Origin: Eledone cirrhosa
Lineage: Eukaryota
Assembly (NCBI GenBank): GCA_964016885.1
Contig: OZ024752.1
Location: 33,170,001 to 33,234,000, forward strand
Length of the DNA: 64,000 bases
Direction of reading: 5' to 3'
Below the pieces are notes generated by a model. It worked only from the letters and a program-made list of their open reading frames with translations. It ran no database searches and was not told the DNA's origin. Below are positions 12,571 through 58,822 of this stretch, one piece after another (position 1 is the first letter of the stretch; each line of letters begins with the position of its first letter). The translations under genes were made by a program, and so were the position numbers.

Positions 12571-13062
12571 TCATCATCATCATCAGGTTTAGCGTCCGTG
12601 TTCCACGCTTGCATGGGTTTGGACGGGGGTTTTCCCATTTGAGGCAAGAGTGGTTGTCTTGCTCACATAGGACTGTCTGGCGGGTTTTCTACAGTTGGAT
12701 GCCCTTCCTAACACCAACCACATTTACAGTGTGGGGCTGGGAGGTTTTTACCGTGTTGCCTACACGGCCACATTACAGCGTGGACTGTCTGGCGGGTTTT
12801 CTACAGCTGGATGCCCTTCCTAACACCAACCACATTTACAGTGTGGGGCTGGGAGGTTTTTACCGTGTTGCCTACACGGCCACATTTACAGCGTGGACTG
12901 TGTGTTTTTTTGTCGTGACACCTACACGATCTCATTTGTTTCGGCCTGGATGGTGTGGCACCAACATAACTTTACATTGAAAGGGGCGGTGTGGATGGGG
13001 TGGAGGTGGTGGGACGGGGGGGTGTTTTGATAGAGATGCCTACTGAATATATATATTATATA

Positions 13063-13105
<43 letters not shown>

Positions 13106-13276
13106 ATATATTATATATATATATATATATTATATATATATATATATATATATGAATATAGACATAGAATATTCGAAAATATTCTGTATGTTTATAATAA
13201 ACATTTTGAAGACCTAATCGCTATAGAATAGAATACGTCACGTATTACAATTAGATTCTCGATAAAAGCAAGGGAA

Positions 13277-13319
13277 GTAATCTACGCGTTTCATTCTCGT
13301 TAGAAATCATCAGGACTAC
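13277..13319 (-). ncRNA. Type I hammerhead ribozyme (inverted copy of 13733-13775)
   Basis: Exact reverse complement of the plus-strand copy. Confidence 0.85.
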
Positions 13320-13732
13320 ATATCCAGTGCTTTTATCGAGAATGACACAGCTAGAGACTTATAGAATACTTAGCTGTGTACAGGAACTGGTTTGAAAGAG
13401 CGGTTGCCGGTCCGGCAGAAATTAGAAATTGGAATAAATGCTCTGAAATAGCGATATATATGTGAATATAGACATAGAATATTCGAAAATATTCTGTATG
13501 TTTATAATAAACATTCTATAGCGATTAGGTCTTCAAAATGTTTATTATAAACATACAGAATATTTTCGAATATTCTATGTCTATATTCACATATATATCG
13601 CTATTTCAGAGCATTTATTCCAATTTCTAATTTCTGCCGGACCGGCAACCGCTCTTTCAAACCAGTTCCTGTACACAGCTAAGTATTCTATAAGTCTCTA
13701 GCTGTGTCATTCTCGATAAAAGCACTGGATAT

Positions 13733-13775
13733 GTAGTCCTGATGATTTCTAACGAGAATGAAACGCGTAGATTAC
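13733..13775 (+). ncRNA. Type I hammerhead ribozyme (minimal stem III)
   Basis: GTAGTC-CTGATGA-T.TTCT(AACG)AGAA.T-GAA-ACGCGT-A/GATTAC. Predicted GUA cleavage after 13769. Confidence 0.85.
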
Positions 13776-13928
13776 TTCCCTTGCTTTTATCGAGAATCTA
13801 ATTGTAATACGTGACGTATTCTATTCTATAGCGATTAGGTCTTCAAAATGTTTATTATAAACATACAGAATATTTTCGAATATTCTATGTCTATATTCAC
13901 ATATATATCGCTATTTCAGAGCATTTAT

Positions 13929-13987
<59 letters not shown>

Positions 13988-17854: not shown

Positions 17855-19028
17855 GTTATGTATATAGTACAGTGGTTGATAGTCTTATATAGTACAGTGG
17901 TTGATAGTCTTATATAGTACATTGGTTGATAGTCTTATATAGTACATTAGTTGATAGTCTTATATAGTACATTAGTTGATAGTCTTATATAGTACAGTGG
18001 TTGATAGTCTTATATAGTACATTAGTTGATAGTCTTATATAGTACATTGGTTGATAGTCTTATATAGTACATTAGTTGATAGTCTTATATAGTACATTGG
18101 TTGATAGTCTTATATAGTACATTAGTTGATAGTCTTATATAGTACATTAGTTGATAGTCTTATATAGTACAGTGGTTGATAGTCTTATATAATACATTGG
18201 TTGATAGTCTTATATAGTACATTGGTTGATAGTCTTATATAGTACAGTGGTGAATAGTCTTATATAGTACATTAGTTGATAGTCTTATATAGTACAGTGG
18301 TTGATAGTCTTATATAGTACGTTAGTTGATAGTCTTATATAGTACATTAGTTGATAGTCTTATATAGTGGTGAATAGTCTTATATAGTATAGTGGTGAAT
18401 AGTCTTATATAGTATAGTGGTGAATAGTCTTATATAGTATAGTGGTGAATAGTCTTATATAGTACAGTGGTGAATAGTCTTATATAGTACATTGTTGATA
18501 GTCTTATATAATAAAGTGGTGAATAGTCTTGTATAGTACATTCGTTGATAGTCTTATATAGTACATTGGTTGATGGTCTTATATAGTACATTGGTTGATG
18601 GTCTTATATAGTATAGTGGTGAATAGTCTTATATAGTACATTAGTTGATAGTCTTATATAGTACATTGTTGATAGTCTTATATAGTACAGTGGTTGATGG
18701 TCTTATATAGTATAGTGGTGAATAGTCTTATATAGTACATTGTTGATAGTCTTATATAGTACAGTGGTGAATAGTCTTATATAGTATAGTGGTGAATAGT
18801 CTTATATAGTATAGTGGTGAATAGTCTTATATAGTACAGTGGTGAATAGTCTTATATAGTACATTGTTGATAGTCTTATATAGTACAGTGGTGAATAGTC
18901 TTATATAGTACATTGTTGATAGTCTTATATAGTACAGTGGTGATAGTCTTATATAGTATAGTGGTGAATAGTCTTATATAGTACATTGTTGATAGTCTTA
19001 TATAGTACAGTGGTGATTAGTCTTATAT
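17855..19028. repeat. 25-bp (some 24-bp) minisatellite, about 46 copies
   Basis: Unit ATAGTCTTATATAGTACAKTRGTTG. Confidence 0.95.
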
Positions 19029-21916: not shown

Positions 21917-23592
21917 GGAGGTGTTAGCTGATTATATCAAGCCCCAGTACTTCAGTGGTACTTTATTTGGGGGGAGTAGGAGGGGTTAGCTGATTATATC
22001 AAGCCCAGTACTTCAGTGGTACTTTATTTGGGGTACTAGGAGGTGTTAGCTGATTATATCAAGCCCAGTACTTCAGTGGTACTTTATTTGGGGGGAGTAG
22101 GAGGGGTTAGCTGATTATATCAAGCCCAGTACTTCAGTGGTACTTTATTTGGGGTACAAGGAGGGGTTAGCTGATTATATCAAGCCCAGTACTTCAGTGG
22201 TACTTTATTTGGGGGGAGTAGGAGGGGTTAGCTGATTATATCAAGCCCAGTACTTCAGTGGTACTTTATTTGGGGTACTAGGAGGGGTTAGCTGATTATA
22301 TCAAGCCCAGTACTTCAGTGGTACTTTATTTGGGGTACTAGGAGGGGTTAGCTGATTATATCAAGCCCAGTACTTCAGTGGTACTTTATTTGGGGGGAGT
22401 AGGAGGGGTTAGCTGATTATATCAAGCCCAGTACTTCAGTGGTACTTTATTTGGGGTACAAGGAGGGGTTAGCTGATTATATCAAGCCCAGTACTTCAGT
22501 GGTACTTTATTTGGGGTACTAGGACGTGTTAGCTGATTATATCAAGCCCAGTACTTCAGTGGTACTTTATTTGGGAGTACTAGGAGGGGTTAGCTGATTA
22601 TATCAAGCCCAGTACTTCAGTGGTACTTTATTTGGGGGGAGTAGGAGGGGTTAGCTGATTATATCAAGCCCAGTACTTCAGTGGTACTTTATTTGGGGTA
22701 CTAGGAGGTGTTAGCTGATTATATCAAGCCCAGTACTTCAGTGGTACTTTATTTGGGGTACTAGGAGGGGTTAGCTGATTATATCAAGCCCAGTACTTCA
22801 GTGGTACTTTATTTGGGGTACTAGAAGGGGTTAGGTGATTATATCAAGCCCAGTACTTCAGTGGTACTTTATTTGGGGGGAGTAGGAGGGGTTAGCTGAT
22901 TATATCAAGTCCAGTACTTCAGTGGTACTTTATTTGGGGTACTAGAAGGGGTTAGCTGATTATATCAAGCCCAGTACTTCAGTGGTACTTTATTTGGGGT
23001 ACTAGGAGGGGTTAGCTGATTATATCAAGCCCAGTACTTCAGTGGTACTTTATTTGGGGGGAGTAGGAGGGGTTAGCTGATTATATCAAGCCCAGTACTT
23101 CAGTGGTACTTTATTTGGGGTACTAGGAGGGGTTAGCTGATTATATCAAGCCCAGTACTTCAGTGGTACTTTATGTGGGGTACTAGGAGGGGTTAGCTGA
23201 TTATATCAAGCCCAGTACTTCAGTGGTACTTTATTTGGGGTACTAGGAGGGGTTAGCTGATTATATCAAGCCCAGTACTTCAGTGGTACTTTATTTGGGG
23301 TACTAGGAGGGGTTAGCTGATTATATCAAGCCCAGTACTTCAGTGGTACTTTATTTGGGGTACTAGGAGGGGTTAGCTGATTATATCAAGCCCAGTACTT
23401 CAGTGGTACTTTATTTGGGGTACTAGGAGGGGTTAGCTGATTATATCAAGCCCAGTACTTCAGTGGTACTTTATTTGGAGGGAGGGAGGGCTTAACTGAT
23501 TACATCAACCCTAGTATTTTGGTGGTACTCTATTTTGAGGGAGAAGGGGTCAGTTGATTATATCAACCACAGTATTTCAGTGGTACTTTATT
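21917..23592. repeat. 59-60-bp minisatellite, about 28 copies, derived from a SINE-A internal segment
   Basis: Unit GGAGGGGTTAGCTGATTATATCAAGCCCAGTACTTCAGTGGTACTTTATTTGGGG. SINE sequence flanks both ends. Confidence 0.92.
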
Positions 23593-23699
23593 TTAATGAC
23601 CCTGGAAGAATGAAAGGAAAAGTTAACCATGGTAAAATTTGAACTTAGAATCTTAAAATTAAAAATAGAATAACATGCTTGGTTATTATTACAACAATC

Positions 23700-52499: not shown

Positions 52500-53200
52500 C
52501 AGTCAGTAGGCATCTCTAACAAAATACCCCCCCACCCACCCACCCCATCCACACCGCCCCCTTTCAATGTAAAGTTATGTTGGTCCCACAACATTCAGGC
52601 CGAAACAAATGAGATCGTGTAGGTGTCACGACAAAAAAACACACAGTCCACGCTGTAATGTGGCTGTGTAGGCAACACGGTAAAAACCTCCCAGACCCAC
52701 ACTGTAAATGTGGTTGGTGTTAGGAAGGGCATCCAGCTGTAGAAAACCCGCCAGACAGTCCACGCTGTAATGTGGCCGTGTAGGTAACACGGTAAAAACC
52801 TCCCAGACCCACACTGTAAATGTGGTTGGTGTTAGGAAGGGCATCCAGCTGTAGAAAACCCGCCAGACAGTCCACGCTGTAATGTGGCCGTGTAGGCAAC
52901 ACGGTAAAAACCTCCCAGACCCACACTGTAAATGTGGTTGGTGTTAGGAAGGGCATCCAGCTGTAGAAAACCCGCCAGACAGTCCACGCTGTAATGTGGC
53001 CGTGTAGGCAACACGGTAAAAACCTCCCAGCCCCACACTGTAAATGTGGTTGGTGTTAGGAAGGGCATCCAGCTGTAGAAAACCCGCCAGACAGTCCTAT
53101 GCGAGCAAGACAACCACTCTTGCCTCAAGTGGGAAAACTCCCGTCCAAACCCATGCAAGCGTGGAACAGGGACGTTAAACGATGATGATGATGATGATGA
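52500..53200 (+). mobile_element. Non-autonomous RTE-tail element with an internal 112-bp tandem expansion; copies at 12568-13045 (-) and 16180-16470 (-)
   Basis: Shares GTTGGTGTTAGGAAGGGCATCCAGCTGTAGAAA and AACCCATGC..GGACGTTAAAC(GAT)n with the RTE 3' UTR. Confidence 0.8.
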
Positions 53201-57511: not shown

Positions 57512-58822
57512 AAATAAAGTGTCTTGCTCAAGGGCACACCGCTCTGCCGGGAATCGAACTCACGACCTTACGATCATGAAACCGAATTCCCTAACCACAA
57601 AGCCACATGCTGCCTTCACACCTTTATATATGTTGCTGTCCCCTTAAATAAAGTGTCTTGCTCAAGGACACACCGCTGTGCCGGGAATCGAACTCACGAC
57701 CTTACGATCATCAACCGAATTCCCTAACCACACAGCCACATGCCTTCACACCTTTATATATGTTGCTGTCCTCTTAAATAAAGTGTCTTGCTCAAGGACA
57801 CCCCGCTGTACCGGGAATCGAACTCACGACCTTACGATCATCAACCGAATTCCCTAACCACAAAGCCACATGCCTTCACACCTTTATATATGTTGCTGTC
57901 CCCTTAAATAAAGTGTCTTGCTCAAGGACACACCGCTCTGCCGGGAATCGAACTCACGACCTTACGATCATCAACCGAATTCCCTAACCACAAAGCCACA
58001 TGCCTTCACACCTTTATATATGTTGCTGTCTTCTTAAATAAAGTGTCTTGCTCAAGGACACACCGCTCTGCCGGGAATCGAACTCACGACCTTACAATCA
58101 TCAACCGAATTCCCTAACCACAAAGCCACATGCCTTCACACCTTTATATATGTTGCTGTCCCCTTAAATAAAGTGTCTTGCTCAAGGACACACCGCTCTG
58201 CCGGGAATCGAACTCACGACCTTACGATCATCAACCGAATTCCCTAACCACAAAGCCACATGCCTTCACACCTTTATATATGTTGCTGTCTTCTTAAATA
58301 AAGTGTCTTGCTCAAGGACACACCGCTCTGCCGGGAATCGAACTCACGACCTTACAATCATCAACCGAATTCCCTAACCACAAAGCCACATGCTGCCTTC
58401 ACACCTTTATATATGTTGCTGTCCTCTTAAATAAAGTGTCTTGCTCAAGGACACACCGCTGTGCCGGGAATTGAACTCACGACCTTACAATCATCAACCG
58501 AATTCCCTAACCACAAAGCCACATGCCTTCACACCTTTATATATGTTGCTGTCCTCTTAAATAAAGTGTCTTGCTCAAGGACACACCGCTGTGCCGGGAA
58601 TTGAACTCACGACCTTACGATCATCAACCTAATTCCCTAACCACAAAGCCACATGCCCTCACACCTTTATATATGTTGCTGTCCTCTTAAATAAAGTGTC
58701 TTGCTCAAGGACACACCGCTGTGCCGGGAATTGAACTCACGACCTTACGATCATCAACCGAATTTCCTAACCACAAAGCCACATGCCCTCACACCTTTAT
58801 CTCTGTTGCTGTCCTCTTAAAT
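57512..58822 (-). repeat. About 130-bp tandem array (about 10 copies) of a SINE tRNA-like head plus flank, abutting AGMO exon 4
   Basis: Each unit carries TGGCTTTGTGGTTAGG and GAGTTCGATTCC boxes on the minus strand and TCCTTGAGCAAGACACTTTATTT. Confidence 0.92.

What the first reader, a model, noticed from the sequence alone, without database searches (positions are those of the whole stretch)
13154..13934. 310-nt circularly permuted monomer in two inverted greater-than-unit arms: footprint of a circular RNA template
Seen: the left arm is about 1.17 units (period 310) and the right arm about 1.36 units in the opposite orientation. The arms start and stop at different points of the same 310-nt cycle, each has one HHR, and (TA)n flanks both sides. 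Inference: arbitrary permutation plus terminal redundancy is expected from RT running around a self-cleaved, circularised RNA, followed by a template switch or second priming. The arms look identical, so the insertion is probably young.
Basis: partly seen in the sequence, partly recalled or inferred. Interest (0 to 1): 0.85.

Follow-up and report, generated by a model that had tools for sequence, protein, structure and literature searches.

The report
Retrozyme inserted as two opposed arrays
This is one of over a thousand insertions of a 310-base, ribozyme-carrying non-coding repeat that lands as two back-to-back runs of identical copies with Penelope-type ends, which is genomic evidence for the proposed but unproven idea that such RNAs are copied round and round as circles by a Penelope retrotransposon's enzyme.

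Summary
In detail: arms of 1.17 and 1.36 units, period 310, opposite strands, one type I hammerhead motif each, in (TA)n. It is one copy of a young family (4,033 exact hammerhead matches; about 1,240 insertion ends of each of two kinds). The permutation is not arbitrary. Outer ends fall at two fixed sites about 35 nt apart, one per arm (82 of 84 two-armed insertions): the Penelope-like-element (PLE) "tail". Only the inner ends are random. None of 92 insertions runs into a coding PLE. Most arms are multimers (up to 45 units), both arms share one haplotype (43 of 45; chance about 18%), and variants sit in all units or in one. Best reading: a non-autonomous non-LTR retrozyme. A PLE enzyme primes both ends of a break on one RNA and copies it repeatedly, most likely as a monomeric circle (about 0.7). 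Two or three mosaic loci point to multi-unit templates. No RNA, cleavage or partner enzyme is shown. I found no report of this anatomy for retrozymes; the scan noted a ribozyme-free analogue in another genome (unchecked).

The parts
13047..13153 (.). Left (TA)n target microsatellite
   Evidence: in other copies the same compound microsatellite continues on both sides of the insertion (L031, L035, L040), so it is target and not element-made
13153..13515 (-). Left arm, 1.17 units, cycle 78 to 130; ends at the 'short' (S) site
   Evidence: exact 363-nt match to the cycle
13277..13319 (-). Type I hammerhead motif of the left arm; predicted cut between 13283 and 13282
   Evidence: coordinates derived; descriptor test
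13513..13515 (.). Head-to-head inversion junction with 3-nt microhomology
   Evidence: 50 of 83 junctions in the family overlap by 1-6 nt
13513..13934 (+). Right arm, 1.36 units, cycle 54 to 165; ends at the 'tail' (T) site
   Evidence: exact 422-nt match
13513..13822 (+). One full 310-nt non-coding monomer (34.5% GC), strongly self-paired if closed to a circle
   Evidence: -67.8 kcal/mol against -49.6 +/- 4.3; 0 of 100 shuffles fold as well
13733..13775 (+). Type I hammerhead motif of the right arm (CUGAUGA and GAAA core, 6-bp helix I, helix II with a U.U pair at its base, palindromic short helix III); predicted cut after 13769
   Evidence: no Rfam hit; cleavage not tested
13900..13934 (+). 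35-nt 'tail' between the two fixed end sites (cycle 131-165), present at the end of this arm only
   Evidence: matches the 30-40-bp PLE tail described in PMC8557442 and PMC11167929
13933..14021 (.). Right (TA)n target microsatellite

Best explanation
A non-autonomous non-LTR retrozyme mobilised in trans by a PLE RT/GIY-YIG protein. (1, inferred) Arrays are transcribed, tandem hammerheads cut out 310-nt monomers, and a host ligase closes them. (2, inferred from end structure) The PLE enzyme cuts both strands of a (TA)n site and uses both 3' ends as primers on the same RNA, at two sites about 35 nt apart: an AUAUAUAU stretch at cycle 132-139 and an AU at 164-165. (3, inferred from variant patterns) Each reverse transcription runs round the monomer for a variable number of turns and stops at a random point. 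(4, junctions shown) The two cDNA ends are joined, mostly by 1-6-nt microhomology, which gives a head-to-head palindrome of two multimers. (5, seen in a few long arrays) Unequal crossing-over later enlarges some arms. The window copy is a short example. Confidence is about 0.9 for PLE-driven double priming and about 0.7 for the whole model with a monomeric circle as the usual template.
For: Fixed, paired ends: 82 of 84 two-armed insertions have one S and one T end, none has S|S or T|T. Of 61 consecutive T-end hits on contig C1, chosen without regard to a partner, 56 have an inverted partner arm. S and T junction counts are 1,236 and 1,240, controls 0. Coding PLEs of the same genome show the same paired ends in (TA)n: 7 inverted pairs of family A and 2 of family C. 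One RNA for both arms: 43 of 45 insertions share a haplotype across arms, chance 0.175; 124 variant-locus cases are fixed in both arms and 0 are arm-discordant. Monomer bottleneck: 140 variant-locus cases are in all units, 113 in one unit, 18 partial; single-unit differences are mirrored between arms 1 time against 64 not, outside two mosaic loci. One haplotype marker is fixed in 18 units of one locus and in no other array of the assembly. No trace of a linear monomer: inner ends are not enriched at the cut site (3 of 166, 3.2 expected), and 850 of 852 junctions across the cut site are unchanged. None of 48 locus-wide alleles hits the 12 core positions, while the free core position N7 varies in 22 loci (weak, about 2 expected). 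Literature: anole PLE protein nicks and extends both strands and starts at two internal sites bounding the tail (PMC11167929); other animal retrozymes accumulate as circles (PMC7229834).
Against: No RNA, cleavage or circle is shown for this element. L107 carries two haplotypes in the same order from the outer end in both arms, and L096 has one mirrored single-unit variant; both need a multi-unit template or one arm copied from the other. L135 switches haplotype within one arm. No single-unit source on the same background was shown for any of 4 markers traced genome-wide. Eight loci carry partial-frequency variants, mostly long arrays where DNA-level expansion is evident, so arm lengths overstate RT processivity there. 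No autonomous partner shares the priming region: family A 39 of 200 shuffles score as well; family C shares only the hammerhead core (26 of 28 nt). In vitro the anole PLE prefers uncut RNA (PMC11167929), and 8 of 9 Xenopus retrozyme dimers did not cleave (bioRxiv 10.64898/2026.07.22.740005).
Confidence: 0.7

Rival explanations
1. Same PLE double priming, but the template is an uncut linear multimer transcript of an existing array; the hammerhead is incidental and no circle is needed.
For: L107 in-register mosaic and L096 mirrored variant. Uncut RNA is the main substrate of the anole PLE in vitro (PMC11167929). The window haplotype has a U.U pair at the base of helix II and a two-pair helix III. 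Inner ends ignore the cut site, which uncut RNA also predicts.
Against: It passes single-unit variants on in register and never spreads one to all units. Seen: 1 mirrored against 64 unmirrored differences, 17 haplotypes among 45 loci each nearly uniform within its locus, 140 all-unit against 18 partial cases, and no other array fixed for the L120 marker. Arrays could only shrink without a re-amplifying step.
Confidence: 0.18
2. PLE priming inserts about one unit per arm, as in the window, and the multimers grow afterwards by unequal crossing-over, with arm-to-arm conversion keeping them uniform.
For: Partial-frequency variants in 8 loci, with recurring blocks in L083 and the 45-unit array. Terminal redundancy of 53 and 112 nt in the window would seed such growth.
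Against: 131 of 168 arms are already at least 2 units, with only 82 non-fixed variants in 143 kb. Most non-fixed variants are singletons (113 against 18 partial), a star-like pattern expected if the units were born together. Even 1.2-1.4 units need a more-than-unit template.
Confidence: 0.07
3. The RT copies a cut linear monomer and jumps from its 5' end back to a 3' end repeatedly.
For: It gives tandem, single-haplotype arms, and helix I would hold the two ends together. L135 shows a mid-arm haplotype switch.
Against: It predicts inner ends piled at the cut site (3 of 166 seen, 3.2 expected) and ragged junctions (2 of 852, one duplicated event).
Confidence: 0.04
4. The locus is a truncated pLTR pair of a coding PLE, or an assembly or chimera artefact.
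For: Inverted 5'-truncated copies and tails are ordinary for PLEs (PMC8557442). No long reads over this locus were examined.
Against: None of 92 insertions leads into an ORF, and a whole 310-nt cycle repeats up to 45 times. The arms end at different sites and the flanks are not mirrored. An independent run shows contig ends at the same S and T positions followed by TA.
Confidence: 0.01

Closest known systems
Metazoan non-LTR retrozymes (Cervera and de la Pena 2020, PMC7229834: passages and Discussion read, supplements not seen; Li, Clavereau and Pollet 2026, bioRxiv 10.64898/2026.07.22.740005: parts 1-3 of 5 read)
   Same: Tandem 150-450-bp non-coding units, low GC, one type I hammerhead per unit, self-paired predicted circle, proposed mobilisation by PLEs through circular RNA.
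   Different: Neither text describes inverted two-armed insertions or fixed tail-type ends ('inverted' 0 hits in PMC7229834; 1 hit, in a reference title, and 'tail' 0 in the preprint). The preprint leans on local amplification by unequal crossover. Circles were shown there by experiment and are not shown here.
EN+ Penelope-like elements (Craig et al. 2021, PMC8557442: passages; Frangieh et al. 2024, PMC11167929: parts 1-2 of 4; Cervera and de la Pena 2014, PMC4209133: passages and section 5)
   Same: Inverted 5'-truncated copy, 30-40-bp tail at one end only, two internal priming sites, both strands extended, (TA)n targets, hammerhead near the priming region.
   Different: No ORF; a 310-nt unit instead of 3-4 kb; many full turns per arm; no sequence match to the priming region of the PLE families examined here.
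Non-autonomous Chlamys elements such as MRC1 (PMC8557442, passage)
   Same: Non-autonomous PLE passengers with multicopy head-to-tail insertions.
   Different: They generally resemble their autonomous partner at the 3' end, and most Chlamys lack canonical hammerheads.
LINE-1 twin priming (recalled, not checked in a paper here)
   Same: Two primers on one RNA give an inversion joined by microhomology.
   Different: In L1 the two segments do not overlap and the second site is variable. Here both arms start 35 nt apart at fixed sites and copy the same sequence.

Membership tests
non-LTR retrozyme | Tandem units of about 150-450 bp, dimers to large multimers | tested here: met
   310 bp (308-311 in some loci); arms up to 45 units
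non-LTR retrozyme | Type I hammerhead motif in each unit | tested here: met
   Descriptor hit, 0 of 5000 shuffles; 4,033 exact matches, spaced 310 apart in the listed arrays. Rfam gives no hammerhead hit.
non-LTR retrozyme | Low GC, non-coding | tested here: met
   34.5% GC; no ORF of 200 aa or more within the arms, the long frames touching them run through flanking microsatellite
non-LTR retrozyme | Self-cleavage of the RNA | not testable with these tools
   Needs in vitro transcription; variant pattern is only suggestive
non-LTR retrozyme | Accumulates as linear and circular monomer RNA | not testable with these tools
   No run on record as RNA was listed; wrap-around contigs also arise from tandem DNA
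non-LTR retrozyme | Target-site duplication longer than 4 bp when present | tested here: inconclusive
   Flanks are microsatellites, so a duplication cannot be read
non-LTR retrozyme | No LTR, PBS or PPT | not tested
   No LTR-like framing in the arrays examined; PBS and PPT were not searched for
PLE-mobilised insertion | 30-40-bp tail at one end only | tested here: met
   82 of 84 two-armed insertions; about 35 nt
PLE-mobilised insertion | Inverted 5'-truncated copy at the 5' end | tested here: met
   56 of 61 consecutive T-end loci
PLE-mobilised insertion | Microsatellite target bias | tested here: met
   All 11 loci whose flanks were printed lie in TA-rich microsatellite; 10 of them were chosen by the hammerhead pattern only
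PLE-mobilised insertion | Shares priming or 3' region with an autonomous partner | tested here: inconclusive
   Families A, B and C compared in part: no match outside the hammerhead core shared with C; other PLE families not sampled
autonomous PLE or its pLTR | RT plus GIY-YIG ORF joined to the repeat | tested here: not met
   0 of 92 insertions (one could not be judged on its 5' side)

The most novel reading that the evidence does not exclude
Each insertion records two reverse transcriptases of one PLE complex rolling round a single covalently closed RNA, one from each end of a double-strand break. Changes made on that RNA molecule, possibly A-to-I edits (locus-wide rare alleles are 14 of 36 A>G on the ribozyme strand, against 10 of 119 among single-unit changes), are then written into every unit of both arms. 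This would be direct genomic proof of rolling-circle retrotransposition in animals and would explain the tandem, inverted and tail structures of PLEs in one model.
Probability: 0.35. Interest if true: 0.85.

Novelty: new variant of a known kind. Interest (0 to 1): 0.63.

Why it matters
Two linked questions are open in the papers read: whether animal retrozymes are really moved by PLEs through circular RNA (proposed in PMC4209133 and PMC7229834, supported so far by co-occurrence and pLTR phylogeny), and how PLEs make their tandem and inverted insertions (called undefined in PMC8557442). This family is young, small and has over a thousand insertions with readable haplotypes. It ties a retrozyme to PLE enzymology by end structure, shows that both arms of an inverted insertion come from one template, and gives exact priming sites and a 310-nt substrate for an in vitro test. 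A very young coding PLE in the same genome (144 of 144 scored copies identical over 267 aa) is a candidate enzyme.

Tried and rejected
A DNA search of the genome with the arm returned nothing because common words are skipped; patterns were used instead. Rfam gave no hammerhead hit and only hairpin-type chance hits. Sequencing runs: no RNA holder listed, which is no evidence on expression. The raw-read run laid 0 reads and is no test. Two runs gave a 340-nt wrap-around contig, which tandem DNA also gives. Twenty runs under 18 organism codes hold most of the unit's words; I laid three and draw no conclusion on host range. Partner search: Pfam-family searches of the genome were not obtained. PLE families A, B and C were found beside sampled loci; none matches the priming region. 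The RT call for family C's 758-aa frame rests on motifs read by eye and a weak GIY-YIG hit (E 0.019); Pfam RVT_1, a pairwise comparison and PDB gave no support. Source-daughter tracing with four markers showed recurrent mutation on other backgrounds and no shown source. A planned batch of 20 S-end-only loci was not obtained, so the two-armed share is estimated from T ends only. Full-length family A loci were not fetched; its ends were read from the search loci. A target-site duplication could not be read. One paper on PLE hammerhead dimers is not held. My notebook entry that all 14 A>G alleles are paired is wrong: it is 13 of 14. Literature searches for the anatomy.

Full report
Observation. 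I numbered the 310-nt cycle from the first base after the predicted hammerhead cut (window 13770). The left arm is an exact 363-nt match on the minus strand (13515 to 13153, cycle 78 round to 130). The right arm is an exact 422-nt match on the plus strand (13513-13934, cycle 54 round to 165). They overlap by 3 nt, and (TA)n arrays flank both sides. Each arm has one motif with the CUGAUGA and GAAA core, a 6-bp helix I, a helix II with a U.U pair at its base and a palindromic short helix III. My descriptor finds it in the unit and in 0 of 5000 shuffles. The local fold has z -3.7, and the closed unit folds at -67.8 kcal/mol against -49.6 +/- 4.3. Rfam does not report it. The description of such motifs as dimer-type hammerheads comes from PMC4209133 (passages).

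The family. The window lies in a 3.0-Gb genome, animal by its repeat content (my inference). An exact 43-nt hammerhead pattern occurs 4,033 times (control 0), and the listed hits form runs spaced 310 apart, minus-strand runs followed by plus-strand runs. That pattern covers only the window's hammerhead haplotype, so the family is larger. I analysed 90 stretches: the window, 10 chosen by the hammerhead pattern and 79 chosen by end patterns, all but the window on contig C1. They hold 92 insertions, 84 two-armed and 8 single-armed at my length cut-off. One of the 8 has a short inverted stub and one cannot be judged on its 5' side. One two-armed insertion is counted twice because it lies in a local duplication.

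The ends are PLE ends. In 82 of the 84 two-armed insertions one arm ends at cycle ~130-139 (S) and the other at ~163-170 (T): 41 in each order, none S|S or T|T. Of the other two, one has an extra internal piece and one ran off the fetched stretch. Many loci were picked because both end patterns were present, so the unbiased figure is the run of 61 consecutive T-end hits on C1: 56 have an inverted partner arm, 4 do not, 1 cannot be judged. Genome-wide the two junction patterns occur 1,236 and 1,240 times. An independent run has contig ends at the same places followed by TA or A runs (7 contigs at 13598, 3 at 13626-13629). The ~35 nt between the sites match the 30-40-bp tail found at one end of PLE insertions (PMC8557442), which in the anole PLE lies between two RT start sites; that protein cuts and extends both strands (PMC11167929). 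Both sites here have AT microhomology to the target (up to 8 nt at S, 2 nt at T). Coding PLEs of this genome do the same. Family A (144 of 144 scored copies identical over 267 aa) ends at two sites just inside its ORF start, one per arm in 7 inverted pairs, and family C does so in 2 pairs. The inner ends are random: 118 positions among 166 ends, uniform (p 0.48); of 83 junctions 50 overlap by 1-6 nt, 9 are blunt, 17 have 1-10 added bases, 6 have more and 1 overlaps by 16. No insertion continues into an ORF, so this is not a pLTR remnant.

One template for both arms. Among 45 insertions with both arms of at least 2.3 units there are 17 haplotypes, and 43 have the same one in both arms, where chance would give 0.175. 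124 variant-locus cases are fixed across both arms and none is fixed in one arm only. T arms are longer in 50 of 82 (p 0.02).

Circle or linear multimer. 131 of 168 arms are at least 2 units, the medians are 4.4 (T) and 3.2 (S), and the longest is 45. Within loci, variants are in all units (140 cases), in one unit (113) or partial (18, in 8 loci). A linear multimer would pass single-unit variants to both arms in register and could not spread one to all units. Outside two mosaic loci, 1 difference is mirrored and 64 are not. Four markers traced genome-wide are mostly in whole arrays or in single units. One is fixed in 18 units of L120 and in no other array, though it is scattered through one expanded array on another background. 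This needs a one-unit bottleneck followed by re-amplification at insertion. A cut linear monomer with end-to-end jumps is disfavoured: 3 of 166 inner ends lie at the cut site (3.2 expected), and 850 of 852 junctions across it are unchanged at positions 308-1 (alleles at +2 exist but are locus-wide, with one odd unit in L147). A monomeric circle is the simplest template.

Evidence against. L107 has two units of one haplotype and then another haplotype, in the same order from the outer end in both arms; L096 has a mirrored single-unit variant; L135 switches within one arm. At least some templates are therefore multi-unit, or one arm is copied or converted from the other. Long arrays (L080, L083, L084, the 45-mer) show shared partial variants, so DNA-level expansion also acts. 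I found no same-background single-unit source. No RNA or cleavage evidence exists for this element. The anole PLE prefers uncut RNA in vitro, and 8 of 9 Xenopus retrozyme dimers did not cleave. The partner is not identified: family A's UTR and ORF start do not align better than shuffles (39 of 200), and family C shares 26 of 28 nt of the hammerhead core and nothing else. That may point to the ribozyme's origin but not to the mobilising enzyme.

A side signal. Rare locus-wide alleles are enriched in A>G on the ribozyme strand: 14 of 36 substitutions against 10 of 119 among single-unit changes (Fisher p 5e-5). Against T>C the strand test gives p 0.02, or 0.05 without one old lineage. 13 of the 14 sit opposite U in the predicted fold, where 56 of 91 As are paired. 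A-to-I editing of the template, or selection for changes that keep a G.U pair, would both give this. Polarity is taken from the window's haplotype. None of 48 locus-wide alleles touches the 12 core positions, while 9 of 146 single-unit changes do; this is consistent with selection on the ribozyme but not significant.

Comparison with what is known. By unit size, GC, tandem form and hammerhead this is a non-LTR retrozyme (PMC7229834; passages and Discussion). Rolling-circle copying by a PLE RT was proposed there and in PMC4209133, and a 2026 preprint supports a PLE origin by co-occurrence and pLTR trees. In these texts, two reviews (passages) and seven searches I found no description of retrozymes inserted as opposed multimer arms with tail-type ends, nor of haplotype sharing between PLE arms. 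Subscription papers and supplements were not seen. Inverted copies and tails themselves are well known for PLEs.

Verdict. A real feature and a new variant of a known kind. PLE-driven double priming on one RNA: about 0.9. Monomeric circle as the usual template: about 0.7. Interest 0.63, because the family turns a proposed mechanism into a directly testable one, while the element class and the model are already in print.

Noticed in passing
L035:2-1507 and L151-L180: Very young coding PLE with a C-terminal GIY-YIG-type domain (family A): 144 of 144 scored copies identical over 267 aa, open frames up to about 1,217 aa, tandem period about 4.1 kb, paired S/T ends in (TA)n. Candidate mobilising enzyme.
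   Followed up: partly
L229-L232; also L175, L181, L198: Family C: hammerhead-bearing repeat with 16,398 exact 31-mer copies, often as short inverted pairs. It is the terminal repeat of a coding element with a 758-aa frame, and its hammerhead core is 26 of 28 nt identical to the 310-nt unit's.
   Followed up: partly
L036:4062-6370 and L181-L210: Older, broken PLE family B (RT and GIY-YIG hits, 92-96% aa identity among listed copies) beside a retrozyme insertion.
   Followed up: partly
L084:1499-1770: 272 nt of unrelated GC-rich sequence captured at the inversion junction between the two arms.
   Followed up: no
L143 plus L144 (G000 C1 about 97.46-97.48 Mb): One arm has grown to 45 units with scattered shared variants, which looks like a satellite being born from a retrozyme insertion.
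   Followed up: partly
L214, L217: An older, more diverged sub-lineage of the 310-nt unit with about a dozen locus-wide differences and the same two-armed form.
   Followed up: no
window 17861-19028, 21917-23593, 52643-53097, 57512-58822: Several minisatellite arrays (periods 25, 60, 112, 130); the 112-nt unit also occurs at 12670-12901.
   Followed up: no
window:13513-13822 in public runs: Twenty runs under 18 organism codes hold 64-100% of the unit's sampled words; one run has 619 variant contigs at very high depth. Kind and cause unknown.
   Followed up: partly
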